A stretch of 44,273 nucleotides of DNA, taken from positions 1-44,273 of the forward strand of contig JACRGN010000086.1 in NCBI GenBank assembly GCA_016234205.1. Reading direction: 5' to 3'. Shown piece by piece: positions 5,826 to 43,741 of the stretch (position 1 is the stretch's first letter; each line of letters opens with the position of its first letter). The notes beneath the pieces were generated by a model that saw only the letters and a program-made list of their open reading frames with translations, was not told where the DNA came from and searched no databases. Made by a program: the position numbers and the translations under genes. This DNA comes from Nitrospinota bacterium (GTDB lineage: Bacteria > Nitrospinota > Nitrospinia > UBA9942).

Positions 5826-5852
5826 TTTAATGTACAGGAAATTTCAATATTG

Positions 5853-5931
5853 AGATTGCTTCGCCTTCGGCTCGCAATGACAAACAAAAGCAATGGTGTC
5901 ATTGCGAGGAACGATAGTGACGAAGCAATCT
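5853..5931. repeat. CATTGCGAG-type palindromic element (intergenic aroB/lipoprotein)
   Basis: AGATTGCTTCGCCTTCGGCTCGCAATGAC ... GTCATTGCGAGGAACGATAGTGACGAAGCAATCT. Nearly the same as the copy inside rlmN. Confidence 0.9.
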
Positions 5932-5948
5932 AAGTTCTGGAGAAGGCT

Positions 5949-7051: not shown

Positions 7052-7137
7052 GGAGAATGGAGAAAAGGGAGAAAAGGAGAAAAAAGAATCTAACTTATTA
7101 TCTCTCCATTTCTCCATCTTCTTCCCCCTTTCTCCTT
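7050..7137. repeat. Word palindrome (GGAGAAA/TTTCTCC words)
   Basis: AAGGAGAATGGAGAAAAGGGAGAAAAGGAGAAAA ... TCTCTCCATTTCTCCATCTTCTTCCCCCTTTCTCCTTA. Confidence 0.9.
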
Positions 7138-7157
7138 ATATGTTTTTTATAATTTAA

Positions 7158-8679: not shown

Positions 8680-8793
8680 CACAGATGACAGCATTGCTGT
8701 CATTCTGAGGACGAAGTCCGAAGAATCTCAAAGCGAGATTCCTCGCTTCGCTCGGAATGACATTTCTTTTTTTTAATCTGTGAAAATCTGTGG
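8658..8793. repeat. Nested palindrome: CACAGAT-word outer arms around a CATTCTGAGG/GAATCTC inner element
   Basis: Outer arms AACCACAGATTACACAGATTAACACAGAT / AATCTGTGAAAATCTGTGG. Inner arms TGTCATTCTGAGGACGAAGTCCGAAGAATCTC / GAGATTCCTCGCTTCGCTCGGAATGACA. Confidence 0.9.
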
Positions 8794-22762: not shown

Positions 22763-22926
22763 AAGGAGAAATGGGGAAATTAGGGAAAAGGGGAAAAATA
22801 TTAAAAGTGTCAGAGTATCAGAGTATCAAAGTGTCAGAGTAAAAAAACTTTGACACTATGACACTTTGACTCTTTGATACTCTAATTTATCTCTCCATCT
22901 CTCCATCTTCTTCTCCCTTTCTCCTT
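22763..22926. repeat. Two-layer nested word palindrome in the LuxR/PilZ divergent region
   Basis: Outer arms are GGAGAAA-type (22763-22797 / 22890-22926). Inner arms are GTGTCAGAGTATCAGAGTATCAAAGTGTCAGAGT / CTTTGACACTATGACACTTTGACTCTTTGATACTCT. Confidence 0.9.
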
Positions 22927-23035
22927 ATATGTTTTTTATAATTTCCTATACATAAAAAAATCCCACTTTTGAGGGATTGACTGAAAAGCAAATAAATATT
23001 AAAGTTAGTGCAATTTAACATGAGGAGGAGGAAAT

Positions 23036-23371: not shown

Positions 23372-23432
23372 TTAAGAGGGTATTTATGGAACAGGCAGAA
23401 TATAAATGTAAATGCTTTGAGTATAGGATGGT

Positions 23433-23505
23433 GTCATTGCGAGGGACTACAGTCCCGAAGCAATCTAAACGGTTAGGGATTGCTTCGTTGTCACTCGCAA
23501 TGACA
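23433..23505. repeat. CATTGCGAG-type palindromic element between the PilZ and FecR genes
   Basis: GTCATTGCGAGGGACTACAGTCCCGAAGCAATC ... GGATTGCTTCGTTGTCACTCGCAATGAC. The right arm supplies the ATG at 23500. Confidence 0.9.
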
Positions 23506-24758: not shown

Positions 24759-24979
24759 ACCACAGAGGCACGGAGGCACAGAGAGGGCAGATAAGAATTA
24801 TGAAACAATCATGTCTATTAATGCCAGACACAAAAAGGGATGAAAATGTCATTGCGAGGGAGCGAAGCGACCGAAGCAATCTAAAAGGCGGGATTGCTTC
24901 GCCGGAGCCTGCCCTGAGCGATGAAACAAGATTGCTTCGCTTCGCTCGCAATGACACAAGCGAAGGGGCTCGCAATGAC
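24759..24979. repeat. Composite repeat cluster (CACAGAGG words plus about 2.5 CATTGCGAG-type units) upstream of the NHL lipoprotein gene
   Basis: AACCACAGAGGCACGGAGGCACAGAGAG; GTCATTGCGAGGGAGCGAAGCGACCGAAGCAATCT; GGATTGCTTCG...ATTGCTTCGCTTCGCTCGCAATGAC; GCTCGCAATGAC. Confidence 0.85.
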
Positions 24980-24994
24980 AAAGTGGGGATTCAG

Positions 24995-27712
24995 GTGAAA
25001 AGAACAATCTTAACCTTAACCTCAGCCTTAACCTGTCTTCTATTGAACTCCTGTGGTGGCGGCGGCGGGGGCTCATCATCAACAGAAGGTGGTAAATCCT
25101 TTGTAAAAATAACATTAGGTGGAAGTGGAAAACCTGTCATCAATTCCGAACAGGGGACAGGCTTTAGAGAAAATTCAATACCCTCAAATATATACAAACT
25201 CTCATTCACAATAAGTGCCTCTGACATGGCAACAGCAAATAAAGATGTTCTTGTTGCAGGACAAACTGCTGTAACAGAAACTTTTTCAATACAAAATGGC
25301 AGCAGCAGATATTTTCTTATAGAGGCAAAGGATAGTTCAGGGACTGTTCTTTATAAAGGGGATACAACAAAAGATCTTGACGGCACACCTGTAACCCTGG
25401 ATATTGTTATGGTTGACCAGAATACAACAGGTGGAGGGACAACTACTACCACCACAGGCACAACTACCACAACTACAACAGCGACAACAACAACTGCAAC
25501 CACTACAACAACCACGACAACAGATACAACAGCGCCGACAGTATCATCAGTAAGTCCCGGGAGTGGCGCAACAGGAGTTGCAATCTCTTCCACCATAACA
25601 GCTACTTTCAGTGAGGCAATGGATTCATCAACGATTACCACATCCACATTTACTGTAGGTGGTGTTTCAGGCACAGTAACCTACTCTGGCACAACAGCCA
25701 CATTTACACCATCGAGCAGTCTCTCTTACTACACCACCTATACAGCAACAATTACAACAGGAGTAAAAGATTCAGCAGGGAATGCAATGGCAAGCAGTTA
25801 CTCATGGAGCTTTACAACAGTACTCATGGGCGGGACGATACAGGGCAGTGCATTAAACCTCACAAGTTCCAATGCTGCTGTTACAACCCTTGCAGGCACT
25901 GCAGATTCTTCCGGCACAACAGACGGCACAGGAACAGCAGCAAGATTTAATAGTCCTAACAATATAACCACAGATGGGACATATCTATTCGTAGCCGAAG
26001 AGGGGAATCATATTATTCGTAAGATTGTTATATCCACAGGGGTTGTTACTACTCTTGCAGGTTCTGCCGGTTCTTCCGGTTCAACCGATGCCACAGGCAC
26101 AGCAGCAAAGTTTAATTCTCCTGCTGGTATAACCACAGATGGGACAAGTCTGTTTGTAGCTGATACTTATAATCACACAATCCGTAAGATTGTAATATCC
26201 ACAGGTGTTGTTACAACTATTGCAGGCACTGCGGGTTCAATTGCCTCAACAGATGGCACAGGCACATCTGCAAGATTTAATTATCCTGCTGGTATAACCA
26301 CAGATGGGACAAATTTGTATATAACTGATTACAATAATCATACAATCCGTAAAATCGTTATATCCACAGGTGTTGTTACAACACTTGCAGGTTCTACTAC
26401 CAGTGGCTCAACAGATGCCACAGGCACAGCAGCAAGCTTTAATAATCCTTATGGCATAACCACAGATGGGACAAATTTGTTTGTAACTGATTGGGGCGGC
26501 ACTACCATCCGCAAAATTGTCATCTCAACTGCGGTTGTTACAACTATTGCCGGTTCAACAGATGGCACAACAGACGGCATAGGCACGGCAGCGCTGTTTT
26601 CTTACCCTGAAGGCATAACCACAGATGGGACAAATTTATTTGTAGCTGATAATGGTAATAGCACTATCCGTAAGATTACACCCACCACACTTATGGGCGG
26701 CTCTATGCAGGGCAATTCGTTAAATCTTACAACTGCGGTTACCACCCTTGCAGGCACTGCACTTTCTTCTGGCACAACTGATGCCACAGGCACATCAGCA
26801 AGATTTGCCCATCCATATCACATTACCACTGATGGGACAAATCTATTTGTAGCTGACCAGACTAATCATACCATCCGTAAGATTGTTATATCCACAGGTG
26901 TTGTTACAACAATTGCAGGCACTGCAGGTTCTGCCGGTTCAACAGATGCCACAGGCACATCTGCATTGTTTAATTCTCCTGCGGGAATAACTACAGATGG
27001 GACAAATCTATTCGTAGCTGATTACTCTAATCATGAAATCCGTAAGCTCGTCATATCCACAGGTGTTGTTACTACTCTTGCAGGAAACTCGAATTCTCCT
27101 GGCTCAACAGATGCCACAGGCACGGCTGCAAGCTTTTATTTGCCTAAAGGTATCACCACAGATGGGACAAATCTATTCGTAGCTGAGGAGGGGAACCATA
27201 TTATTCGTAAGATTGTCATATCCACAGGTGTTGTTACTACAATTGCAGGCACTGCCGGCACAATCGGCTCAACCGATGCCACAGGCACATCTGCATTGTT
27301 TAATTTTCCTCGTGGCATAACAACTGATGGAACAAATCTGTTCATAGCCGATAGTGCTAATAATACAATCCGCAAGCTCGTTATATCCACAGGTGCTGTT
27401 ACAACAATTGCAGGCTCTACTACCAGTGGCTCAACTGACGGCACAGGCACAGCAGCAAGGTTTAAACTCCCCGTTGGTATAACCACAGATGGGACAAATC
27501 TATTCGTTGTTGATAATAATAATTATACAATCCGTAAGCTCGTCATATCCACAGGTGTTGTAACAACAATTGCAGGCACTGCCGGCACAAGTGGCTCAAC
27601 AGATGCCACAGGCACATCTGCATTGTTTAAATCCCCTCTTGGCATAACAACCGATGGGACAAACCTATTCATAGCTGATGGGAGTAATATGACAATCCGT
27701 AAGATTCAGTAG
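24995..27712 (+). CDS. Large lipoprotein: Gly linker, beta-sandwich, poly-Thr linker, Ig-like (Big_5/SbsA-type) domain and 11 NHL-type repeats (5+6)
   Basis: GTG 24995 gives MKRTILTLTSALTCLLLNSC (lipobox). 11 units fit the pattern VTTxAG..GS.GSTDGTGT.A.F..P.GITTDGTNLFVAD..NHTIRKIVISTG. ORF codons 24800-24994 are repeat DNA. Confidence 0.75.
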   Translation: MKRTILTLTSALTCLLLNSCGGGGGGSSSTEGGKSFVKITLGGSGKPVINSEQGTGFRENSIPSNIYKLSFTISASDMATANKDVLVAGQTAVTETFSIQNGSSRYFLIEAKDSSGTVLYKGDTTKDLDGTPVTLDIVMVDQNTTGGGTTTTTTGTTTTTTTATTTTATTTTTTTTDTTAPTVSSVSPGSGATGVAISSTITATFSEAMDSSTITTSTFTVGGVSGTVTYSGTTATFTPSSSLSYYTTYTATITTGVKDSAGNAMASSYSWSFTTVLMGGTIQGSALNLTSSNAAVTTLAGTADSSGTTDGTGTAARFNSPNNITTDGTYLFVAEEGNHIIRKIVISTGVVTTLAGSAGSSGSTDATGTAAKFNSPAGITTDGTSLFVADTYNHTIRKIVISTGVVTTIAGTAGSIASTDGTGTSARFNYPAGITTDGTNLYITDYNNHTIRKIVISTGVVTTLAGSTTSGSTDATGTAASFNNPYGITTDGTNLFVTDWGGTTIRKIVISTAVVTTIAGSTDGTTDGIGTAALFSYPEGITTDGTNLFVADNGNSTIRKITPTTLMGGSMQGNSLNLTTAVTTLAGTALSSGTTDATGTSARFAHPYHITTDGTNLFVADQTNHTIRKIVISTGVVTTIAGTAGSAGSTDATGTSALFNSPAGITTDGTNLFVADYSNHEIRKLVISTGVVTTLAGNSNSPGSTDATGTAASFYLPKGITTDGTNLFVAEEGNHIIRKIVISTGVVTTIAGTAGTIGSTDATGTSALFNFPRGITTDGTNLFIADSANNTIRKLVISTGAVTTIAGSTTSGSTDGTGTAARFKLPVGITTDGTNLFVVDNNNYTIRKLVISTGVVTTIAGTAGTSGSTDATGTSALFKSPLGITTDGTNLFIADGSNMTIRKIQ
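25845..27709 (+). repeat. 11 tandem ~130-135-nt coding repeats (NHL units) with long near-identical DNA stretches
   Basis: Recurring strings such as ATCCGTAAGATTGT(T/C)ATATCCACAGGTGTTGTTAC and ACCACAGATGGGACAAATCT. Confidence 0.9.
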
Positions 27713-28011: not shown

Positions 28012-28039
28012 TTGACATCTTTTCCTGCCTTGATATAAT
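28012..28039 (+). promoter_or_regulatory. Near-consensus sigma-70 promoter upstream of the DUF5618-like gene
   Basis: TTGACA (28012-28017), 16-nt spacer ending in TGa, TATAAT (28034-28039). Confidence 0.65.
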
Positions 28040-28080
28040 TTGAGGCAATTTAAGAATCCCCAAAGCCCACTTAAACCCCA

Positions 28081-28458
28081 ATGAAGGAATCTATTAGATA
28101 TTTAAACAATGCAAAGGAGATACTCAAAAAAGTCCCGATAGAGGGTCGTGTCTATACAGATGTTAAGCCAGTAAGAGAGGCTTTTGGGACAGCCTATCTT
28201 GCTATTTTAGAAGCAATAAACGAGTACCTTATTACTAAACATGGCTTAATAAAAAAAGAACTTCCTAAGTCTGTAGATGCATATAGGGATGCACTGCATA
28301 AGTATATGGCTATTCGTAATGGAAAACTTATGAGAGAATTTGAAATGCTTTATGATACCCTGCACATAGCAGGATACTACAGGGGTTTGCTTTATGATGT
28401 AGATGTAGTTAAAGAGGCATTAAAGGCTGCTAAGTTATTTATTGAGAAAGTTAAGTAA
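28081..28458 (+). CDS. Small all-helical protein, DUF5618/HEPN-like (tentative)
   Basis: 125 aa. The pattern YLNNAKEILKK...AFGTAYLAILEAINEYL...HIAGYY recalls DUF5618. It has its own near-consensus promoter. Confidence 0.35.
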   Translation: MKESIRYLNNAKEILKKVPIEGRVYTDVKPVREAFGTAYLAILEAINEYLITKHGLIKKELPKSVDAYRDALHKYMAIRNGKLMREFEMLYDTLHIAGYYRGLLYDVDVVKEALKAAKLFIEKVK

Positions 28459-28668: not shown

Positions 28669-29913
28669 ATGAAGAAGATATTAGTAATAACATTAGCAGT
28701 AGCCTTATCCTTCGTAGGTTCATTTTTTATGGTGAAGGATGCACAGGCAGTTCCAGGATTTGCAAGACAGACAGGCCATGCATGTTCAACCTGTCATTTC
28801 CAGAGTTTCCCATCCTTAAATTCCTTTGGCAGGGCATTTAAGGCAAGTGGTTATACACAGATTGGGGACCAGGGGAAAATAGAGGATGAAGGGCTCTCAA
28901 TTCCAAATGTCCTTAATATGTCTCTTATAGTTAAAGCAAGATATTCGCAGACAAATGGAGATAGTAAGGCTGGGAGAGACAGGGGTCAAATAGAGATTCC
29001 TGATGAGGCATCATTAATGGCTGGAGGTCGTGGTGGAGAGCATGTTGGGTTTTTACTTGAGAGAGGTCTTAAGACATCAGGAGGTTTTGATAATTTTAAA
29101 ATAATATTCCCATTTGATATGGGTGGGACCACTCTGGCAGCAGGTGCTTTTACAACAGATGCCCTGGGAGCAGCCTATGGGTTTGAAACTTTAAATACGG
29201 GTGCATTAAGGCTCCAGAAGCCTTTTGGTGAAGGTGTTGCTACCTCTGCACAGCAGTATACAGGTCTTAATACAGCAGCCACAGGTATCGTTCTCTATGG
29301 TGCCAGTGATATGTTCTTTGTAAATGCCTCTTTATGGGGTCCAAGTCATTCCGATGCGATTTCTTCGGGTCTTAATCTCGCACAGTATATCCGTGCAGCA
29401 GTAACACCTAATCTTGGCGGCTTTGATACAGCAATAGGTGTTCAGTATTGGGGTGGTGAGACAAAATTAGGTGAAGCAACTTCTGCAACCTATGTAGTTC
29501 AGGGAACTGCCATTGATGCACAGGCACAGGGTGAGATTGGTGGTATGCCTCTGGGAGTCTATATCACCTATGCGACAGTACCTAAGGCAGGGACTGACGG
29601 TAAGACATATGCCATCGCATCAGCTGCAGGAGACAAAAATGCAACATCTATAGCTGCAAATCTTGGTATTATCCCGAATAAGGCATCTTTAGGATTGAGT
29701 TATCTTATGGGTAAAAATGGAGCTGCAACTAAGTCTGCCGAAAATGCCATGAATATTGCGGCTATATATAAGTTAGCTCAGAATGTTAAGTTGCAGTTAG
29801 ATTATGCAACATTCAGTGGCGATGCGGATGTAAAGACAGTAGCACAATCAGGTGGAGACATGGGGAACTTGTATAGTAATAGGACAACTCTGATGATCTT
29901 CGCCGGATTCTAA
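28669..29913 (+). CDS. Monohaem CxxCH + beta-barrel outer-membrane protein (Cyc2-like fused cytochrome-porin), copy A
   Basis: Signal peptide ...KDAQA, then VPGFARQTGHACSTCHFQSFPSLNSFGRAFKASGY. The remaining ~370 aa are Gly/Ala/Tyr-rich and Cys-free, ending LMIFAGF. SD GAGGAGG. Confidence 0.55.
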   Translation: MKKILVITLAVALSFVGSFFMVKDAQAVPGFARQTGHACSTCHFQSFPSLNSFGRAFKASGYTQIGDQGKIEDEGLSIPNVLNMSLIVKARYSQTNGDSKAGRDRGQIEIPDEASLMAGGRGGEHVGFLLERGLKTSGGFDNFKIIFPFDMGGTTLAAGAFTTDALGAAYGFETLNTGALRLQKPFGEGVATSAQQYTGLNTAATGIVLYGASDMFFVNASLWGPSHSDAISSGLNLAQYIRAAVTPNLGGFDTAIGVQYWGGETKLGEATSATYVVQGTAIDAQAQGEIGGMPLGVYITYATVPKAGTDGKTYAIASAAGDKNATSIAANLGIIPNKASLGLSYLMGKNGAATKSAENAMNIAAIYKLAQNVKLQLDYATFSGDADVKTVAQSGGDMGNLYSNRTTLMIFAGF

Positions 29914-29971
29914 TTGTTCGACTTTTAGACAAGCTCAAAGCTCACCATGCTTAATGGTGAAGCAAATAAAA

Positions 29972-30003
29972 AGGGGAGGGTTTAAAACCCTCCCCTTTTT
30001 TTT
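29972..30003 (+). terminator. Intrinsic terminator after Cyc2-like copy A
   Basis: AGGGGAGGGTTT-a-AAACCCTCCCCT followed by a T8 run. Confidence 0.8.
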
Positions 30004-30006
30004 ATT

Positions 30007-30034
30007 TTGACAATAACTTACTGTATGCTATATT
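30007..30034 (+). promoter_or_regulatory. Sigma-70 promoter (extended -10) placed for a leaderless transcript of the DUF1640-like gene
   Basis: TTGACA (30007-30012), 16-nt spacer, TGcTATATT (hexamer 30029-30034). The ATG at 30042 lies 7 nt downstream and has no SD. Confidence 0.55.
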
Positions 30035-30041
30035 ATTTATC

Positions 30042-30290
30042 ATGACAACTAAAGCCATTAGAGTATACGAAATTTTTAAAGAACTCGGTTTAAAAGAAGA
30101 GAAGGCAGAGGAGATTGTCGATTTACTGACTGAGACTGCAAAAGAAGGTCTGGCTACAAAAGAAGATATCTATGCCTTAAAAGAAGACCTCTCTAATTTG
30201 AAATTTGATATGATTAAGTGGATGATTGGTCTTTTATTGGGGCAGACTGCATTAATCCTTACAATTATGAGGCTCTTCTTCTTAAAATGA
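30042..30290 (+). CDS. Small coiled-coil + C-terminal TM protein (DUF1640-like)
   Basis: 82 aa with LATKEDIYALKEDLSNLKFDMIKWMIGLLLGQTALILTIM. The ATG sits 7 nt after a -10 box and there is no SD. Confidence 0.5.
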   Translation: MTTKAIRVYEIFKELGLKEEKAEEIVDLLTETAKEGLATKEDIYALKEDLSNLKFDMIKWMIGLLLGQTALILTIMRLFFLK

Positions 30291-31171
30291 CAATAATCCG
30301 CTATTTCCTTCCTTTCATACTATTCCTATTTTTAACAGGCTGTTCTGGGGCGGTTAAGCTTAACTATAAGCCCGGACAAATCCCTGATACATCAAAAGCC
30401 ACTAAACCCCTAACCATCATCCTTAAACCATATATTGATTCAAGGGGAGATGTCGCCCCAAACTATGTTGGAAAAATTGAGTCAACTGTTACTGATATGC
30501 ATGCCGATAAAATTATTTTGGAAAAGGATGTTGCTATATCTGTTAATGAAGCTATTAAGACACATCTAACTTCTGCCGGTTTTATTGTTACCATCCCTTC
30601 ATCCCCTCCTTTAGAAGGAGGAGAGGGGGGAGGTGAGGCTGATATAATAATGAGCGGGGAGATAAAAAAGTTCAGGCTTGATATTAAGGGAAGAGACGAA
30701 ATAGAAATTGAGCTTGAAAGCAGGTTAATATCAGGTAAAACAGGGAAGGGTATATGGGAGGGTGTAATAACAGAAAAAGAAGATAGGTTTGCAGGGGTCT
30801 CTGGTAATTCCAAGAAGACAATCAATTCATATATCTCAAAGACACTTGCAAAGGTTATTAATAAAACAATTATAGAGATAAATAAAAATTTTGGAAAGGC
30901 AGGGACTACATCTATAGAGGAGATGCCGATCCCTGAAGGGGCAGGAAGGATTTCCATAAAGACAGAGCCTCCCCGCTCCAAGATATATATTGGCGACATA
31001 TACTTTGGACTATCGCCGCTGAGTGTTGATATTGAATCAGGTGTATATGATGTAACTGTAAGGCTTGAGGGCTTTAAGGAGAAAAAGGAAAAGGTATCTA
31101 TAAGGAAAGGACAAAAAACAGAACTTGAGATGAATTATGGAGAAGGAGTTTTGAAAAGTCCAATTATATGA
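30287..31171 (+). CDS. Lipoprotein with a C-terminal PEGA domain
   Basis: ATG 30287 overlaps the upstream stop (ATGA). Lipobox LFLTGC. C-terminal ISIKTEPPRSKIYIGDIYFGLSPLSVDIESGVYDVTVRLEGFKEKKEKVSI is PEGA-like. Confidence 0.6.
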   Translation: MTIIRYFLPFILFLFLTGCSGAVKLNYKPGQIPDTSKATKPLTIILKPYIDSRGDVAPNYVGKIESTVTDMHADKIILEKDVAISVNEAIKTHLTSAGFIVTIPSSPPLEGGEGGGEADIIMSGEIKKFRLDIKGRDEIEIELESRLISGKTGKGIWEGVITEKEDRFAGVSGNSKKTINSYISKTLAKVINKTIIEINKNFGKAGTTSIEEMPIPEGAGRISIKTEPPRSKIYIGDIYFGLSPLSVDIESGVYDVTVRLEGFKEKKEKVSIRKGQKTELEMNYGEGVLKSPII

Positions 31172-31238
31172 TATAATTTTTTAAAAGGCTTTCCGATGAA
31201 ATTAGATTCAAAAAACCAAGGAGGAAAATAAAAAAACA

Positions 31239-31460
31239 ATGTATTCTACCTATCGTTTAAAGGCAAATGAACTTGACAGTAAGTTTATAGAAAATTTGAA
31301 GACCCTCTTTGAAGATAAGGAAATTGAAATAGCGGTTTACGAAGTTGATGAGACGGAATATCTGCTAAAGTCTGACGCAAATAGAAGAAGACTCTTAGAG
31401 GCAATAGATAATGTAAAAAACGAGAAAAATCTTATACAAGTTGAAATGATGAAAATCTAA
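31239..31460 (+). CDS. yefM: YefM/Phd-type antitoxin (atypical N-terminus)
   Basis: C-terminal ETEYLLKSDANRRRLLEAIDNVKN parallels E. coli YefM [23 protein letters not shown]. Abuts yoeB with no gap. Confidence 0.7.
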   Translation: MYSTYRLKANELDSKFIENLKTLFEDKEIEIAVYEVDETEYLLKSDANRRRLLEAIDNVKNEKNLIQVEMMKI

Positions 31461-31718
31461 ATGCGAAAGATTATTTTTGAAGCTGGGGTATTTGAGGATT
31501 TTAATGAATGGTCAAAAACCAATAGAAAAATTTATGATAGGATAGTTCAAATAATAAAAGATATAGATAGAAGCCCATTTCATGGAATAGGAAAACCTGA
31601 ACCTTTGAGATTTGAATTAAGCGGTTATTGGTCAAGACGTATAAATGATGAGCATAGGCTGGTTTATAAAGTTACTGACGATGCAATAATTATTGTATCC
31701 TGCAAATATCATTATTGA
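31461..31718 (+). CDS. yoeB: YoeB/Txe family mRNA-interferase toxin
   Basis: F..W...N.KI..RI..IIKDI.RSPF.GIGKPEPLRFELSGYWSRRINDEHRLVYKVTDD.IIIVSCKYHY is colinear with E. coli YoeB along the full length. Confidence 0.92.
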   Translation: MRKIIFEAGVFEDFNEWSKTNRKIYDRIVQIIKDIDRSPFHGIGKPEPLRFELSGYWSRRINDEHRLVYKVTDDAIIIVSCKYHY

Positions 31719-31727
31719 TATTTAATT

Positions 31728-31764
31728 AGGCTCCTCATCGAGAGGTGGGGAGCTTAATTTTTTT
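31728..31764 (+). terminator. Intrinsic terminator after yoeB
   Basis: AGGCTCC...GGAGCTT stem (one G-U pair) followed by AATTTTTTT, ending 3 nt before ATG 31768. Confidence 0.55.
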
Positions 31765-31767
31765 ATT

Positions 31768-33060
31768 ATGAATAGTAGAATAACTGGAATTATTATATTT
31801 TATTTTTTTATCTGGATGTTATTTGTAATACTGACATTCAAATCTGCAGATGCGCAACCGGGGTTTGCAAGAAAGCATGAGATAGCCTGTATGCTCTGCC
31901 ATTCCACCTGGCCAAGGCTGAATGAGTTCGGATTTAATTATATGCTCAATGGCTATCAACTGCCGGATACTGAAGGCGGAGGAGAGGCAGGCAAGATAAA
32001 AATTGCAGAAGACCTCCCGTTGGATAATCCAGCTACATTCCCGCCGTTTAGCCTGAGATTAGAGGGCAGAACCTATTTAAGCAGGACAACACATACAACT
32101 GCTGGTGAGAATGAACAGGCGGGGGGGCTGCTTTCATCTGGTGAAATGGCTGGCAATATTATTGGAGGGGGGACACTTACAAAAAATGTTTCTTACTGGT
32201 TTGAGCTTCCTCAAGGGTCATCTCAGGATAAGATTACGGGTCGCATAACCGAATCAATGTTTTTAGGTTTTCATAATATAGGCGGAACCGGTAATTTTAA
32301 TATCAGATTTGGCTCGCTTATGAGTTCTGACCTTGATGCTGTCCACAGCACAAGGCGGGTTATAAGCGGCAAGTCCCTTATCCCGATGCCTATGAACTGG
32401 AGCAGCGGAAACAGTACAGGCAGGGCAGGCAGTAATGACCTTGGAATTAGTCTTTACGGACGTCCCGGGTTTGGTTATTTTACCTATGAGCTCGCCGTAA
32501 ATCAGGGTAATGGAGGAAGTGCCGATAATGATAATGACCCAAACACCGCCTATACAGGGATGTTGAGGGGGGATTTTGGGGCAGTTGCTGCCTCTGTCAG
32601 ATACTTCGCCAATCCTCAGGGATTTGGAGGGACAGCAGGTAATAGAAAATACAGGAATGATGTGGGAGAATGGGTGGCGGGTATCAGGTATGCATCACAG
32701 AGATTTGACTTAGATTTTCTTTATGACACCGTATCCCAGAGCGATGTTTCATCAACAGGAATCGGGACAAAAAGGGAATCAACTGGCTTTATGATTGAGG
32801 GGCTTTTACGCCTTAGTGAATCTTTTCAATTCGGTGCAATTTATGAGACACTCACAGAAAAAGATGGCGGGACAGATTCAAATAAAAACGCTGATTTTGC
32901 AGTTGAGGGCGCATGGTATGTCACCCAGAATGCACGGATAACTTTTAAATCCCTGTGGGATTTTCAGGATGATAAATATAAAGACAAATACACCGTCGGC
33001 GGTGAACAGAAGAGTATAGATGGGAGTAAGATTACAGTCGGGTTTGATGTAGCATTATAA
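31768..33060 (+). CDS. Monohaem CxxCH + beta-barrel outer-membrane protein (Cyc2-like), copy B
   Basis: Signal peptide ...KSADA, then QPGFARKHEIACMLCHSTWPRLNEFGFNYMLNGY, the same N-terminal motif as copy A. The rest is a Gly/Tyr/Asp-rich beta-type sequence. Confidence 0.5.
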   Translation: MNSRITGIIIFYFFIWMLFVILTFKSADAQPGFARKHEIACMLCHSTWPRLNEFGFNYMLNGYQLPDTEGGGEAGKIKIAEDLPLDNPATFPPFSLRLEGRTYLSRTTHTTAGENEQAGGLLSSGEMAGNIIGGGTLTKNVSYWFELPQGSSQDKITGRITESMFLGFHNIGGTGNFNIRFGSLMSSDLDAVHSTRRVISGKSLIPMPMNWSSGNSTGRAGSNDLGISLYGRPGFGYFTYELAVNQGNGGSADNDNDPNTAYTGMLRGDFGAVAASVRYFANPQGFGGTAGNRKYRNDVGEWVAGIRYASQRFDLDFLYDTVSQSDVSSTGIGTKRESTGFMIEGLLRLSESFQFGAIYETLTEKDGGTDSNKNADFAVEGAWYVTQNARITFKSLWDFQDDKYKDKYTVGGEQKSIDGSKITVGFDVAL

Positions 33061-38086: not shown

Positions 38087-39226
38087 TCAACCTTCTAATC
38101 TCTTGCCCCTCAACTGTCCGCAGGCAGCACATATATCTGCCCCCTTACTTTTTCTTATAATAGCAGTGTAATGTCTTGAAATAAGAAGATTTTGAAACTC
38201 CTCAACATTTTTATAGTCAGGGGTCTCATAATCTGACCCTTCAAAACTGTTAAATGGAATGAGGTTAATCTTACATTTTATATTCTTAAGTATATTTGAA
38301 AGCCTTTTTGCATCCTCAATGGAATCATTTAACCCCTTTATCATAACATACTCAAAGGTAATCCTTCTATTAGGCGGAAGGGGATATTCTTTTAAAGCCT
38401 TAAGCAATTCTTCAATTGGATATTTTTTATTTACAGGCATGATTTTATCTCTCACCTCATTATCTGATGCAGCCAGAGAGATAGCCAGATTTATTTTAAG
38501 ATTCTCCTTCGCAAGCCGTTTGATTTCAGGGATAAGTCCTGATGTAGAGAGTGTTATTCTTCTTGCAGGTATCTTTAATCCATGAGGAGATATCATGGTT
38601 TTTATGGACTTGATGACATTTTCATAATTATCAAGAGGCTCCCCCATACCCATGAGGACTACATTTGTTATTTTCTTATCTTCATAATACTCAGGAATTC
38701 TGCTGAGATTGCTTCGCCTTTGGCTCGCAATGACTGTTGAAGCAGTAGTGTCATTGCGAGGAACGAAGTGACAAAGCAATCTATATTCAATTTCTCGTTG
38801 GACAGCAAGTATCTGCTCTATTATCTCAAGGTGGTTTAAGTTCCTAATAAATCCACCCTTCCCTGTAAGACAGAATGCACAGCATAATTTACATCCAACC
38901 TGTGTGGATATACATAATGTGAGCCTATCTTCATCAGGAATGAGGACACTCTCTATACTATTACCATCCTCCAATAAAAAAAGATATTTTGATGTGCTGT
39001 CAGATGAAGTTCTTTTATCGGCAATAGAGAGGCGGGATATATAGGCTGATTTGCTTAACTGCTCTCTAAGATTTAGGGAGAGATTTGTCATCTCTCCAAT
39101 ATCACTCACATCCTTCTGAAATACCCATTCATATATTTGGCGGGCTCTGTATGGTTTCTCTCCGAGAGATTCTACGAGACCTTCCATCTCCTGAAGGGAG
39201 AGATTTTTTAAATTAATCTTTTGCAT
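38087..39226 (-). CDS. rlmN: 23S rRNA/tRNA (adenine-C2)-methyltransferase, radical SAM
   Basis: YRARQIYEWV, radical-SAM cluster GCKLCCAFCLTG, MGMGEPLDN, and C-terminal ACGQL. Contains an in-frame palindromic element at 38705-38781. Confidence 0.9.
   Translation of the reverse strand: MQKINLKNLSLQEMEGLVESLGEKPYRARQIYEWVFQKDVSDIGEMTNLSLNLREQLSKSAYISRLSIADKRTSSDSTSKYLFLLEDGNSIESVLIPDEDRLTLCISTQVGCKLCCAFCLTGKGGFIRNLNHLEIIEQILAVQREIEYRLLCHFVPRNDTTASTVIASQRRSNLSRIPEYYEDKKITNVVLMGMGEPLDNYENVIKSIKTMISPHGLKIPARRITLSTSGLIPEIKRLAKENLKINLAISLAASDNEVRDKIMPVNKKYPIEELLKALKEYPLPPNRRITFEYVMIKGLNDSIEDAKRLSNILKNIKCKINLIPFNSFEGSDYETPDYKNVEEFQNLLISRHYTAIIRKSKGADICAACGQLRGKRLEG
38705..38781. repeat. Complete CATTGCGAG-type palindromic element inside the rlmN CDS
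   Basis: GAGATTGCTTCGCCTTTGGCTCGCAATGAC ... GTCATTGCGAGGAACGAAGTGACAAAGCAATCT. Same family as the intergenic copy at 5853-5931. Confidence 0.9.
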
Positions 39227-39286: not shown

Positions 39287-39817
39287 TTATTTCTTTTTCA
39301 GATATGGAATAAGATATCTCATCAACTCATTTAATTCTTTATCAGTCATTTCAGGAAATGAAGGCATATCCTCCCCTCCACCTTCTTTGATTATCCTTTT
39401 TACACTATCTTCTGAGACAGGGAGAGTACTTTCTTTGAATTTATCACTATATAAAAGTCCAACCAATTGTGTAGCAGAGTCATCTTGATTTTTACCGCTT
39501 AGCGAGTGGCACTTCGTACACTTTTCATTAAATGCTTTTTCACCGTCAGAAATGGCTTTTCTCTCTTCATTTACAGATTTTTTAATAAGTAATTCTGCAG
39601 CTATTCCCTCCATCTTTTTTTCAGATGTCTCTTCCATCTTTTGAATTTTTATCTGATGACGGTATTCATGAGGAATGGATAGATAATTATCTGTAAAATG
39701 AACTGTTCCTTTTTTGTCTGTCCACTTATAAAACTCTCCTGCAATCAAAGTTACAGGAGAGGATATGAGATAGATTGTAACAAATAAAAGTAAAATAAAT
39801 TTGTACCTATTTATCAT
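39287..39817 (-). CDS. DUF4124 + class-I cytochrome c domain protein (secreted or membrane-anchored)
   Basis: N-terminal hydrophobic segment, FYKWTDKKGTVHFTDN (DUF4124), haem site CTKCHS, and distal GGEDMPSF with a Met ligand. Confidence 0.7.
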   Translation of the reverse strand: MINRYKFILLLFVTIYLISSPVTLIAGEFYKWTDKKGTVHFTDNYLSIPHEYRHQIKIQKMEETSEKKMEGIAAELLIKKSVNEERKAISDGEKAFNEKCTKCHSLSGKNQDDSATQLVGLLYSDKFKESTLPVSEDSVKRIIKEGGGEDMPSFPEMTDKELNELMRYLIPYLKKK

Positions 39818-43635: not shown

Positions 43636-43741
43636 ACGCAAAAATGTCATTCCGAGTGAAACGAGGAATCTCAGTTTTGAGATTCTTCGGGCTTTGCCCT
43701 CAGAATGACCGCATCGCTGTCATCTGCGAAAATCTGCGTCC
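43624..43741. repeat. Nested palindrome: GCAGAT-word outer arms around a CATTCCGAG/GAATCTC inner element
   Basis: Outer arms GGACGCAGATAAACGCAAAA / TCTGCGAAAATCTGCGTCC. Inner arms TGTCATTCCGAGTGAAACGAGGAATCTC / GAGATTCTTCGGGCTTTGCCCTCAGAATGAC. Confidence 0.9.

What the first reader, a model, noticed from the sequence alone, without database searches (positions are those of the whole stretch)
28669..33060. Two highly diverged monohaem CxxCH + beta-barrel (Cyc2-like cytochrome-porin) paralogues bracket a four-gene accessory module
Seen directly: the ORFs at 28669-29913 (414 aa) and 31768-33060 (430 aa) each have a Sec signal peptide. Right after the predicted cleavage site both carry the same motif, PGFAR(Q/K)-x(3-4)-C-x2-CH-x(4)-P-x-LN-x-FG-x(5-6)-GY. 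Each has exactly one CxxCH, and the following ~370 residues are Cys-free, Gly/Tyr/Ala/Thr-rich beta-type sequence. Copy A ends ...LMIFAGF, an OMP-style terminal aromatic. Outside the N-terminal motif the two copies are barely alignable by eye, so this is an old duplication or two separate acquisitions. Established knowledge: Cyc2 of acidophilic and neutrophilic Fe(II) oxidisers has this architecture, an N-terminal monohaem cytochrome fused to a porin. Inference: these are Cyc2-like outer-membrane redox proteins. Between them lie a leaderless DUF1640-like membrane protein translationally coupled (ATGA) to a PEGA-domain lipoprotein, and a yefM/yoeB module. Each unit has its own promoter and terminator, which fits an accessory outer-membrane electron-transfer locus. 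I know of no characterisation of such a locus in this kind of genome. A third c-type haem protein sits at 39287-39817.
Basis: partly seen in the sequence, partly recalled or inferred. Interest (0 to 1): 0.78.

Follow-up and report, generated by a model that had tools for sequence, protein, structure and literature searches.

The report
Two Cyc2 cytochrome-porins with lipoprotein partner
The two genes are real members of the known Cyc2 family of outer-membrane haem-porin iron oxidases, already reported in this bacterial phylum, but the first copy turns out to have a conserved, previously unremarked lipoprotein partner gene, while the rest of the supposed accessory module is incidental.

Summary
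ORFs 28669-29913 (A, 414 aa) and 31768-33060 (B, 430 aa) each have one CxxCH just after a signal peptide, preceded by the published Cyc2 signature PxFAR[Q/K]. CxxCH occurs exactly once in all 135 homologues examined. A models confidently as a 16-strand porin with an N-terminal haem region, and B's wider family aligns to A's profile over 369 columns. A is Cluster-1-type: 37-47% identical to Gallionellaceae and Chlorobi Cyc2. B lies outside that cluster (19-25% identical) and is under strong purifying selection.

The "four-gene accessory module" is not one unit. Only the PEGA-domain lipoprotein is conserved. It follows A-type cyc2 in 12 of 13 Nitrospinota/Desulfobacterota/Nitrospirota species loci, and in 7 of 8 Burkholderiales-type loci as cyc2 - cytochrome c - PEGA. 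Starting from the lipoprotein, 25 of 25 informative metagenome loci have cyc2 upstream. YefM/YoeB and the DUF1640-like ORF are lineage-specific inserts, and the third cytochrome shows no link.

Cyc2 in Nitrospinota is already reported, so the cytochrome-porins are new members of a known kind. The lipoprotein partnership seems unreported. Function is inferred, not shown.

The parts
28669..29913 (+). cyc2-A: Cluster-1-type Cyc2 fused cytochrome-porin (414 aa). Signal peptide residues 1-27, haem motif A27-L50, 16-strand barrel about residues 84-413.
   Evidence: ORF. At least 668 homologues, every one that carries a name called hypothetical. AF2 pLDDT 85.9, pTM 0.83, 16 long strands. Foldseek hits to 16-strand porins including OprP 2o4v and OprO 4rjx. 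37-47% global identity to Gallionellaceae/Chlorobi Cyc2. dN/dS 0.30-0.35.
28747..28818 (+). Haem-binding signature of A: A-V-P-G-F-A-R-Q-T-GHA-CSTCH-FQSF-PSL
   Evidence: Matches AXPXFAR[Q/K][T/Y]...CXXCH...PXL of PMC8406198. A27, F31, R33, C39, C42, H43, P48 and N51 are invariant in 48 aligned homologues.
29968..30000 (+). Intrinsic-terminator-like hairpin after cyc2-A (15-bp stem, T runs on both sides)
   Evidence: also present in L002.
30007..30034 (+). Promoter-like site TTGACA-16-TATATT with TG, ending 7 nt before ATG 30042, which implies a leaderless or near-leaderless small ORF
   Evidence: Consensus match only, not evidence of function.
30042..30290 (+). 82-aa DUF1640/CCDC90-like protein with a C-terminal TM helix; a variable cassette, not a conserved part of the module
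   Evidence: Pfam 31.9 bits, below the 33.5 cut-off. Present in L001, replaced by DUF5618 in L002, absent from most cyc2-PEGA loci.
30287..31171 (+). Conserved non-haem outer-membrane lipoprotein (294 aa): lipobox LTGC, N-terminal domain of ~200 aa of unknown fold, linker, C-terminal PEGA domain. Proposed Cyc2 partner.
   Evidence: PEGA 47.5 bits. Full-length alignment of 23 orthologues, all with a lipobox and no CxxCH. Downstream of A-type cyc2 in 12/13 and 7/8 loci of two clades. Reciprocal test 25/25. dN/dS 0.23-0.38.
31239..31460 (+). YefM-like antitoxin (weak assignment); lineage-specific insert
   Evidence: NCBIfam YefM 25 bits against a 121-bit cut-off. Position upstream of yoeB. Absent in L001 and L002.
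31461..31718 (+). YoeB toxin; lineage-specific insert
   Evidence: Pfam YoeB_toxin 121 bits, TIGR02116 113 bits. Absent at this site in L001 and L002; L002 has a GIY-YIG gene there.
31724..31759 (+). Terminator-like hairpin after yoeB; its T-tail overlaps the start codon of cyc2-B
31768..33060 (+). cyc2-B: divergent Cyc2-family cytochrome-porin (430 aa) outside Cluster 1. Start codon and signal-peptide N-region uncertain; mature protein from Q30.
   Evidence: ORF. Nine close homologues plus a superfamily of 4302 representatives. hhalign of its family against A's family: 99.7%, 369 columns. dN/dS 0.06-0.10. AF2 model unusable, pLDDT 32.7.
31852..31920 (+). Haem-binding signature of B: A-Q-P-G-F-A-R-K-H-EIA-CMLCH-STW-PRL
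   Evidence: A29, P31, F33, A34, R35, K36, C41, C44, H45, P49 and L51 are invariant in 16 aligned sequences. H replaces the usual T/Y, and the spacer to PxL is one residue shorter than in A.

Best explanation
The locus encodes two anciently diverged members of the Cyc2 family: outer-membrane proteins in which an N-terminal monohaem c-type cytochrome module is fused to a 16-strand porin.

Copy A is a Cluster-1-type Cyc2, the type found in neutrophilic iron oxidisers. In this lineage it forms a conserved gene pair with a non-haem outer-membrane lipoprotein that has an N-terminal domain of unknown fold and a C-terminal PEGA domain. Copy B belongs to the separate, very large FAR[K/R][Y/H] branch of the family. 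It is kept directly downstream, before ppiD, in the Nitrospinota relatives and is strongly constrained.

Proposed mechanism, by analogy with Cyc2 of Mariprofundus PV-1 and A. ferrooxidans (inferred, not shown): dissolved Fe(II), or another soluble one-electron donor, enters the pore. The haem at the periplasmic mouth takes an electron and passes it to a soluble periplasmic carrier encoded elsewhere in the genome. The lipoprotein is proposed to be a structural or assembly partner of the A-type barrel, not a redox component.

Shown here: family membership by sequence, the barrel fold of A, full-length profile homology of B to A, purifying selection on all three genes, and conserved gene linkage. 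Inferred: haem attachment, outer-membrane location, direction of electron flow, substrate, and any physical contact between lipoprotein and barrel. The DUF1640-like ORF, YefM/YoeB and DUF5618 are small cassettes that have landed in the intergenic spacers.
For: - Family signature: both proteins have a signal peptide, one CxxCH, PxFAR[Q/K] five residues upstream, PxL downstream and a length of at least 365 aa, as defined in PMC8406198.
- CxxCH is present once in 135/135 homologues.
- AF2 model of A: pLDDT 85.9, pTM 0.83, 16 long strands. Foldseek gives 16-strand porins, including the OprP/OprO templates reported for Cyc2.
- hhalign of B's family against A's: 99.7%, E = 1.3e-25, 369 columns.
- A is 39.7% identical to a Cyc2 of Ca. 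Ferrigenium straubiae KS, 37-39% to Chlorobi and 38-47% to Gallionella/Sideroxydans. The published ranges are 26-53% within Cluster 1 and 15-23% between clusters.
- A nests among those clades in an NJ tree.
- An independent paper puts Nitrospinota and Desulfobacterota Cyc2 in Cluster I.
- Synteny A - (small ORF) - PEGA - B - ppiD is kept in L001 and L002.
- The PEGA lipoprotein is adjacent in 12/13 loci of one clade and follows cyc2 - cyt c in 7/8 of another, in unrelated flanking contexts.
- Reciprocal scan from the lipoprotein: 25/25 informative loci have A-type cyc2 upstream.
- dN/dS: A 0.30-0.35, PEGA 0.23-0.38, B 0.06-0.10, ppiD 0.11-0.12.
Against: - There are no functional data for any member of this clade.
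- No periplasmic cytochrome, cupredoxin or terminal oxidase is encoded next to the locus or elsewhere in the 44-kb window, unlike cyc2-cyc1 arrangements. The 176-aa cytochrome 6 kb away has no conserved link.
- Many carriers of A-type cyc2 plus the lipoprotein are Desulfobacterota/Thermodesulfobacteriota MAGs, lineages not known as aerobic iron oxidisers (my own knowledge), so substrate and direction of electron flow may differ.
- In this window A is followed by a strong terminator, and the PEGA gene has its own promoter-like site, so here the pair is probably not co-transcribed.
- B has no recognisable promoter or Shine-Dalgarno, and its 5' end varies among relatives. Its structure model failed.
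- The Cluster 1 placement rests on an NJ tree without bootstrap and without Zetaproteobacteria references.
- Gallionellaceae (0/31), Chlorobi (0/4) and most Gammaproteobacteria lack the lipoprotein, so Cyc2 does not need it in general.
Confidence: 0.72

Rival explanations
1. The proteins are Cyc2-family members but do not oxidise Fe(II). They might mediate another extracellular redox exchange: Mn(II) oxidation as proposed for Ca. Manganitrophus, electron uptake from minerals or partner cells, or outward electron transfer in anaerobes.
For: Keffer et al. state that function outside well-supported FeOB clades is uncertain. Cyc2 is proposed for Mn oxidation in Nitrospirota. The closest A-type relatives are in Desulfuromonadales, Thermodesulfobacteriota and Nitrospirae MAGs from groundwater. 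No oxidase or cyc1 lies nearby.
Against: A lies inside the identity range and tree span of Cluster 1, the cluster with the best functional support for Fe(II) oxidation. A monohaem in a narrow 16-strand pore is thought to handle only dissolved ions.
Confidence: 0.2
2. The lipoprotein adjacency is inherited gene order with no functional coupling. The PEGA lipoprotein would be a general envelope protein that happens to sit next to cyc2.
For: Distant homologues of the lipoprotein (28-33% identity) occur without cyc2 in a fixed housekeeping context. In the window the two genes are separated by a terminator, a promoter and an extra ORF. Gallionellaceae and Chlorobi Cyc2 have no such neighbour.
Against: The pair recurs in several phyla with completely different flanking genes. 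It persists when a cytochrome c gene is inserted between the two (7/8 Burkholderiales-type loci). The reciprocal test gives 25/25 for the close subfamily. A different, shorter PEGA lipoprotein lies next to cyc2 - cyt c in six gammaproteobacterial loci.
Confidence: 0.25
3. All four genes between the two cyc2 copies form one functional accessory module for outer-membrane electron transfer.
For: The genes are co-directional and compact. The small ORF and the PEGA gene overlap by ATGA.
Against: YefM/YoeB is absent in L001 and L002, and L002 has a GIY-YIG gene at that site. The DUF1640-like ORF is replaced by DUF5618 in L002 and is missing in most cyc2-PEGA pairs, where the spacer is only 0-163 nt. 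YoeB is a known mRNA-interferase toxin family with no link to electron transfer (established knowledge).
Confidence: 0.04
4. Copy B is a decaying or silent paralogue cut off from its promoter by the toxin-antitoxin insertion.
For: There is no promoter-like site or Shine-Dalgarno before ATG 31768, which lies in the terminator's T-tail. The signal-peptide N-region differs in every relative.
Against: B has an intact ORF and the lowest dN/dS of the locus (0.06-0.10, like ppiD). It is 89-98% identical at protein level to the copies in L001 and L002, and all motif residues are intact.
Confidence: 0.1

Closest known systems
Cluster 1 Cyc2 of neutrophilic Fe(II) oxidisers (Cyc2 of Mariprofundus ferrooxydans PV-1; Gallionellaceae, Chlorobi; McAllister 2020, Keffer 2021)
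   Same: Copy A has the same architecture and the same signature as the Gallionellaceae/Chlorobi proteins retrieved here (PAFARQTG.AC..CH-4 aa-P.LN.FGR.FK..GYT). It is 37-47% identical over its full length, has a 16-strand porin model, and ends in a C-terminal aromatic.
   Different: The host is a Nitrospinota-type groundwater lineage that is not an established iron oxidiser. There are no tandem cyc2 copies and no adjacent cyc1-type cytochrome. Instead there is a conserved PEGA lipoprotein gene downstream, which Gallionellaceae (0/31) and Chlorobi (0/4) lack. No Zetaproteobacteria reference sequence was available for direct comparison.
Cyc2 of Acidithiobacillus ferrooxidans (rus operon cyc2-cyc1-cup-coxBACD-rus) and Cyt572 of Leptospirillum (Clusters 2 and 3)
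   Same: Copy B shares the family architecture and, like the large non-Cluster-1 branch recovered here, has FAR[K/R] with a 3-residue spacer before PxL. Zetaproteobacteria also often carry one Cluster 1 and one Cluster 3 gene in the same genome.
   Different: B could not be assigned to Cluster 2 or 3 because no reference sequences were to hand. It has H where T/Y is usual. Its tight clade has only nine close relatives, and its nearest outside relative is 32% identical. There is no rus-type operon.
Porin-cytochrome complexes with a lipoprotein component (MtrCAB of Shewanella; PioAB/MtoAB)
   Same: An outer-membrane barrel for electron transfer is encoded next to an outer-membrane lipoprotein gene.
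   Different: MtrC is a decahaem lipoprotein and MtrB is a 26-strand barrel. Here the lipoprotein has no haem motif at all, the barrel has 16 strands, and the barrel itself carries the single haem.
OprP/OprO phosphate-selective porins (PDB 2o4v, 4rjw/4rjx)
   Same: Among the structural matches to the barrel of copy A (TM 0.51-0.52). They are the same templates found for Cyc2 by Keffer et al..
   Different: They have no cytochrome module, and sequence identity is only about 12%.

Membership tests
Cyc2 fused cytochrome-porin family (definition of Keffer et al. 2021, PMC8406198) | N-terminal Sec signal peptide | tested here: met
   A: MKK + hydrophobic stretch + AQA|V. B: MNSR + hydrophobic stretch + ADA|Q. 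Read by eye; no predictor was available. B's start codon is uncertain.
Cyc2 fused cytochrome-porin family (definition of Keffer et al. 2021, PMC8406198) | Exactly one CXXCH, near the N-terminus, and length of at least 365 aa | tested here: met
   A: C39-H43, 414 aa. B: C41-H45, 430 aa. One CxxCH in 135/135 homologues.
Cyc2 fused cytochrome-porin family (definition of Keffer et al. 2021, PMC8406198) | AXPXFAR[Q/K][T/Y] motif upstream of CXXCH | tested here: met
   A: AVPGFARQT, an exact match. B: AQPGFARKH, with H instead of T/Y in the last position. B's sister sequences P0128 and P0129 have KY.
Cyc2 fused cytochrome-porin family (definition of Keffer et al. 2021, PMC8406198) | PXL motif about 4 residues after CXXCH | tested here: met
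   A: CH-FQSF-PSL (4 residues between). B: CH-STW-PRL (3 residues between, so P is the 4th residue).
Cyc2 fused cytochrome-porin family (definition of Keffer et al. 2021, PMC8406198) | 16-strand beta-barrel porin following the cytochrome region | tested here: met
   A: AF2 pLDDT 85.9 with 16 long strands, and Foldseek matches to 16-strand porins including OprP/OprO. B: the direct model failed (pLDDT 32.7), but its family profile aligns to A's over 369 columns at 99.7%, so for B this is met only indirectly.
Cyc2 fused cytochrome-porin family (definition of Keffer et al. 2021, PMC8406198) | Covalently bound haem, outer-membrane location, Fe(II) oxidase activity | not testable with these tools
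   Needs haem staining, fractionation and Fe(II) oxidation assays.
Cyc2 Cluster 1 (clade containing Zetaproteobacteria, Gallionellaceae and Chlorobi Cyc2) | Falls within the clade spanned by the reference FeOB sequences, with identity in the within-cluster range | tested here: met
   Copy A: 37-47% identity to Gallionellaceae (including strain KS) and Chlorobi, against published 26-53% within and 15-23% between clusters. It nests among them in an NJ tree. PMC9769843 independently places Nitrospinota/Desulfobacterota Cyc2 in Cluster I. Caveats: no bootstrap, no Zetaproteobacteria sequence, FeGenie HMMs not available. Copy B does not meet this (19-25%).
Cyc2 Cluster 2 or Cluster 3 | Groups with A. 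ferrooxidans Cyc2 (Cluster 2) or Leptospirillum Cyt572 / Zetaproteobacteria Cluster 3 | tested here: inconclusive
   Copy B falls in the large FAR[K/R]Y branch, but no named reference sequence for either cluster could be obtained.
PEGA domain proteins (PF08308) | Match to the Pfam model above the gathering score | tested here: met
   47.5 bits against 20.8, residues 243-305 of the long ORF. Orthologues score 41-49 bits.
YoeB/YefM type II toxin-antitoxin | Toxin matches YoeB models, with the antitoxin gene immediately upstream | tested here: met
   YoeB_toxin 121 bits, TIGR02116 113 bits. The upstream 73-aa ORF matches YefM only weakly (25 bits against a 121-bit cut-off), so the antitoxin family is inconclusive.
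DUF1640 / CCDC90-like (PF07798) | Match above the gathering score | tested here: not met
   31.9 bits against a 33.5-bit cut-off, and only the C-terminal 39 residues align. A resemblance, not membership.

The most novel reading that the evidence does not exclude
A large branch of Cluster-1-type Cyc2 (Nitrospinota, Desulfobacterota, Nitrospirota and a Burkholderiales-type group) works as a two-component outer-membrane device. The cytochrome-porin would need a dedicated non-haem PEGA lipoprotein, either for assembly or gating of the pore, or to keep Fe(III) product off the pore mouth. In this Nitrospinota lineage the lipoprotein would serve two non-redundant Cyc2 channels, A and B, with different substrates or redox windows.
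Probability: 0.3. Interest if true: 0.7.

Novelty: new variant of a known kind. Interest (0 to 1): 0.45.

Why it matters
Cyc2 is the main genetic marker used to infer microbial iron oxidation from metagenomes, but its function outside a few cultured iron oxidisers is uncertain. This locus shows that a large, mostly uncultured set of Cluster-1-type cyc2 genes comes with a conserved lipoprotein gene that the model iron oxidisers lack. That gives a concrete co-marker for splitting Cyc2 into subtypes. It also suggests a candidate missing component to co-express when Cyc2 is produced heterologously. And it raises a testable hypothesis about how a 16-strand haem-porin is assembled or protected. The stable pairing of a fast-evolving Cluster-1-type copy with a strongly constrained divergent copy offers a natural system for asking whether Cyc2 clusters differ in function. 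The Cyc2 identification itself is not new for this phylum.

Tried and rejected
- Pfam and NCBIfam give nothing above threshold for A or B; these libraries hold no Cyc2 model.
- Sequence searches of the PDB with A, with B's family profile and with the lipoprotein profile found no meaningful relatives.
- The AF2 model of B from a 16-sequence alignment was unusable (pLDDT 32.7).
- Attempts to get named reference sequences (PV-1, A. ferrooxidans, Leptospirillum) from paper supplements, cluster names or older literature failed. B therefore could not be assigned to published Cluster 2 or 3, and FeGenie HMMs could not be run.
- The window's own contig is not indexed in the gene-position collection, so the window was annotated by Pfam instead.
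- Considered and rejected: recent duplication of A and B (24% identity, different branches); the TA pair and the DUF1640-like ORF as functional parts (synteny); the 176-aa cytochrome as a dedicated partner (its L001 homologue lacks haem, and it sits in a pilin-gene context).
- My own recollection that the FARKY-type motif was the Cluster 1 (PV-1) type could not be verified. It was set aside in favour of the Gallionellaceae/Chlorobi sequences actually retrieved.

Full report
**Observation.** Each has a hydrophobic N-terminal leader ending in A-x-A and a single CxxCH a few residues later. Neither has any Cys other than the two in its CxxCH. BLASTP aligns only the first ~85 residues of the two (36% identity, E = 3e-9). 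Pfam and NCBIfam give no hit above threshold for either, only a sub-threshold Porin_4 hit for A.

**Is it Cyc2?** Keffer et al. 2021 (PMC8406198) define the family by these features:
- a signal peptide;
- at least 365 aa;
- one CXXCH;
- an AXPXFAR[Q/K][T/Y] motif upstream of the CXXCH, which they call unique to Cyc2;
- a PXL motif downstream of it;
- a 16-strand porin resembling OprO/OprP.

A reads AVPGFARQT-GHA-CSTCH-FQSF-PSL, an exact match. B reads AQPGFARKH-EIA-CMLCH-STW-PRL, which differs by H in place of T/Y and a spacer one residue shorter. Across 135 homologues, CxxCH is present exactly once in every sequence, and PxFAR or a near variant (FSR, YSR) in almost all.

The AlphaFold2 model of A, built from 48 diverse homologues, is confident (pLDDT 85.9, pTM 0.83). 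It has short helices around the haem motif and 16 long beta-strands. Foldseek against the PDB returns 16-strand porins, among them OprP 2o4v and OprO 4rjx.

B's model, from only 16 sequences, was unusable (pLDDT 32.7). However, a 48-sequence alignment of B's wider family aligns to A's family profile at 99.7% probability (E = 1.3e-25) over 369 columns, which is nearly the whole protein. Both are therefore Cyc2-family cytochrome-porins. For B the barrel is supported only indirectly.

**Which kind of Cyc2?** A has at least 668 homologues, and every one that carries a name is labelled hypothetical. A scan of GTDB species representatives found at least 565 loci. The best 80 include Nitrospinota, Desulfuromonadales, Thermodesulfobacteriota and Nitrospirae. 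They also include Gallionella, Sideroxydans, Ca. Ferrigenium straubiae KS, Chlorobium, and sulfur-oxidising symbionts. All carry the same motif, PAFARQTG.AC..CH-4 aa-P.LN.

Keffer's Fig. S7 gives 26-53% identity within Cluster 1 and 15-23% between clusters. A is 39.7% identical to the KS protein, 37-39% to Chlorobi and 38-47% to Gallionella/Sideroxydans. It nests among these clades in an NJ tree (no bootstrap, no Zetaproteobacteria). PMC9769843 independently places Nitrospinota and Desulfobacterota homologues in Cluster I.

B is 19-25% identical to all of these. An exhaustive profile search places it in a very large FAR[K/R]Y branch with a 3-residue spacer: 4302 representatives at E <= 1e-3. 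Its own tight clade has nine members, and the nearest outside relative, P0200 from Nitrospinae MAGs, is 32% identical. I could not map B to published Cluster 2 or 3 because I had no reference sequences. A Cluster 1 gene plus a second-cluster gene in one genome has a precedent in Zetaproteobacteria.

**Are the genes alive?** I compared the window with L002 (Nitrospinae MAG GCA_016194325.1; 88-97% nucleotide identity) and with L001:

| Gene | dN/dS vs L002 | dN/dS vs L001 |
|---|---|---|
| cyc2-A | 0.35 | 0.30 |
| PEGA lipoprotein | 0.38 | 0.23 |
| cyc2-B | 0.10 | 0.06 |
| ppiD | 0.12 | 0.11 |

All are under purifying selection. B is as constrained as a housekeeping gene. A evolves faster and has a higher dS than its neighbours (0.28 against 0.08-0.125 versus L002).

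**The genes in between.** L001 and L002 keep the order aspS - A - small ORF - PEGA lipoprotein - B - ppiD - rnr - rsmI - rlmN.
- YefM/YoeB is absent from both. L002 has a GIY-YIG gene at that site, and L001 has repeat elements.
- The DUF1640-like ORF is present in L001 but replaced by a DUF5618 gene in L002.
- Only the PEGA lipoprotein is constant.

Its true start is ATG 30287, with lipobox LTGC. Twenty-two distinct orthologues all have a lipobox and no CxxCH. The family aligns over its full length: a conserved N-terminal domain of ~200 aa, a variable linker, and the PEGA domain. No solved structure is related by sequence.

**Linkage of the lipoprotein to cyc2.** Among species-representative loci with at least 1.2 kb of downstream sequence:

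| Clade | Loci with the lipoprotein downstream | Arrangement |
|---|---|---|
| Nitrospinota/Desulfobacterota/Nitrospirota | 12 of 13 | directly after A-type cyc2 |
| Burkholderiales-type | 7 of 8 | after cyc2 and a dihaem cytochrome c |
| Gallionellaceae | 0 of 31 | often tandem cyc2 copies |
| Chlorobi | 0 of 4 | none |
| Gammaproteobacteria and others | 0 of 17 | 10 have an adjacent cytochrome c; 6 have a different, short PEGA lipoprotein on the opposite strand |

The flanking genes differ completely between lineages. For the reciprocal test I started from the lipoprotein in metagenomes. All 25 close homologues that have any informative upstream sequence have A-type cyc2 upstream. The gap is at most 163 nt in all but L111 (848 nt), and the ORF calls overlap in L097. 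More distant homologues (28-33% identity) sit in a fixed housekeeping context without cyc2. No paper in the searched library links a PEGA protein or a lipoprotein to Cyc2.

**Transcription signals.** A has a Shine-Dalgarno (GAGGAGG) and a TTGACA box upstream. It is followed by a 15-bp-stem terminator at 29968-30000. A TTGACA-16-TATATT site ends 7 nt before the small ORF's ATG, which fits a leaderless start. A second strong terminator follows yoeB, and its T-tail overlaps B's ATG; no promoter or Shine-Dalgarno is visible for B. Promoter-like sites as a class are no more frequent than in shuffled sequence.

**Context.** The rest of the window is ordinary chromosome: pilNOPQ, aroB, LPS-core heptose genes, panBCD, folK, regulators, a large NHL/Big_5 protein, ppiD, rnr, rsmI, rlmN and minor pilins. 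It holds no respiratory genes. The 176-aa DUF4124-cytochrome c at 39287-39817 lies among minor-pilin genes, and its syntenic homologue in L001 has no CxxCH. I see no specific link to the Cyc2 genes.

**Mechanism and confidence.**
- Shown: family membership, the fold of A, full-length profile homology of B to A, selection, and gene linkage.
- Inferred from the characterised Cyc2 proteins: haem attachment, outer-membrane location, and oxidation of a dissolved donor (most likely Fe(II)) in the pore, with the electron handed to a periplasmic carrier encoded elsewhere.
- The lipoprotein has no redox motif, so I propose a structural, assembly or protective role.
- The main rival is a different substrate or direction of electron flow, given how many carriers belong to lineages not known as aerobic iron oxidisers.

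**Novelty.** The Cyc2 identification is right but not new for this phylum. The conserved A - lipoprotein (- B) arrangement differs from the described cyc2 neighbourhoods (cyc2-cyc1-cox-rus, tandem cyc2) and seems not to have been reported. I rate it a new variant of a known kind, of moderate interest.

Noticed in passing
window 5851-5881 and 38704-38734; 5893-5933 and 23428-23468; 8730-8765 and 43642-43677 (inverted); 7098-7155 and 22887-22944: Families of short dispersed repeats (REP/MITE-like, 88-97% identical). One copy lies in frame inside rlmN (38087-39226, minus strand), which is 379 aa here against 349-358 aa in L001 and L002. Similar elements fill the PEGA-to-cyc2-B spacer in L001 and L002 and translate to strings such as RFARNDT and SAQNDM.
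   Followed up: partly
window 28669-29913 compared with L002: cyc2-A has dS 0.28 against the close relative L002, whereas the adjacent PEGA, cyc2-B and ppiD genes have dS 0.08-0.125. This suggests allelic replacement of A by recombination, or unusually fast change in this surface protein.
   Followed up: partly
window 28012-28458: The DUF5618 gene (128 bits) has a perfect 12/12 sigma-70 consensus promoter with an extended -10. In L002, DUF5618 copies flank cyc2-A on both sides, and one of them takes the place of the DUF1640-like ORF, again overlapping the PEGA start by 4 nt. It behaves like a small mobile cassette.
   Followed up: partly
window 30007-30044: The -10 element ends 7 nt before the ATG of the 82-aa ORF, so this small membrane protein may be translated from a leaderless mRNA.
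   Followed up: no
window 39287-39817 (minus strand); L001 18557-19327: The 176-aa protein combines DUF4124 with a class I cytochrome c domain and sits among minor-pilin (N_methyl) genes. The syntenic DUF4124 protein in L001 has a different C-terminal half with no haem motif.
   Followed up: partly
window 24800-27712: The 970-aa Big_5 + NHL-repeat protein is built from 11 tandem 165-nt units and has a Thr-rich linker. Its N-terminal ~60 residues look like translated repeat element, so the real start is probably further downstream.
   Followed up: no
L019, L022, L049, L058, L083, L088 (gammaproteobacterial cyc2 loci, including tubeworm and lucinid symbionts): cyc2 is followed by a dihaem cytochrome c and then, on the opposite strand, by a short (183 aa) lipoprotein with a PEGA domain and a SHOCT tail. 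This is a second, independent association of a PEGA lipoprotein with cyc2.
   Followed up: partly
L117-L168 (metagenome loci): Distant homologues of the PEGA lipoprotein (28-33% identity) occur without cyc2 in a fixed context that, judging from the translations, includes an RppH-like NUDIX gene, a class II aminoacyl-tRNA synthetase gene and a CoaBC-like gene. The lipoprotein family is therefore wider than the cyc2-linked subfamily.
   Followed up: partly
A-family alignment A1, position M409 of copy A: A Met in the last beta-strand (TLM-x-F-x-x-F) is conserved in at least 90% of 48 sequences. No conserved Met or second His is evident near the haem motif, so the sixth haem ligand is unidentified.
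   Followed up: no
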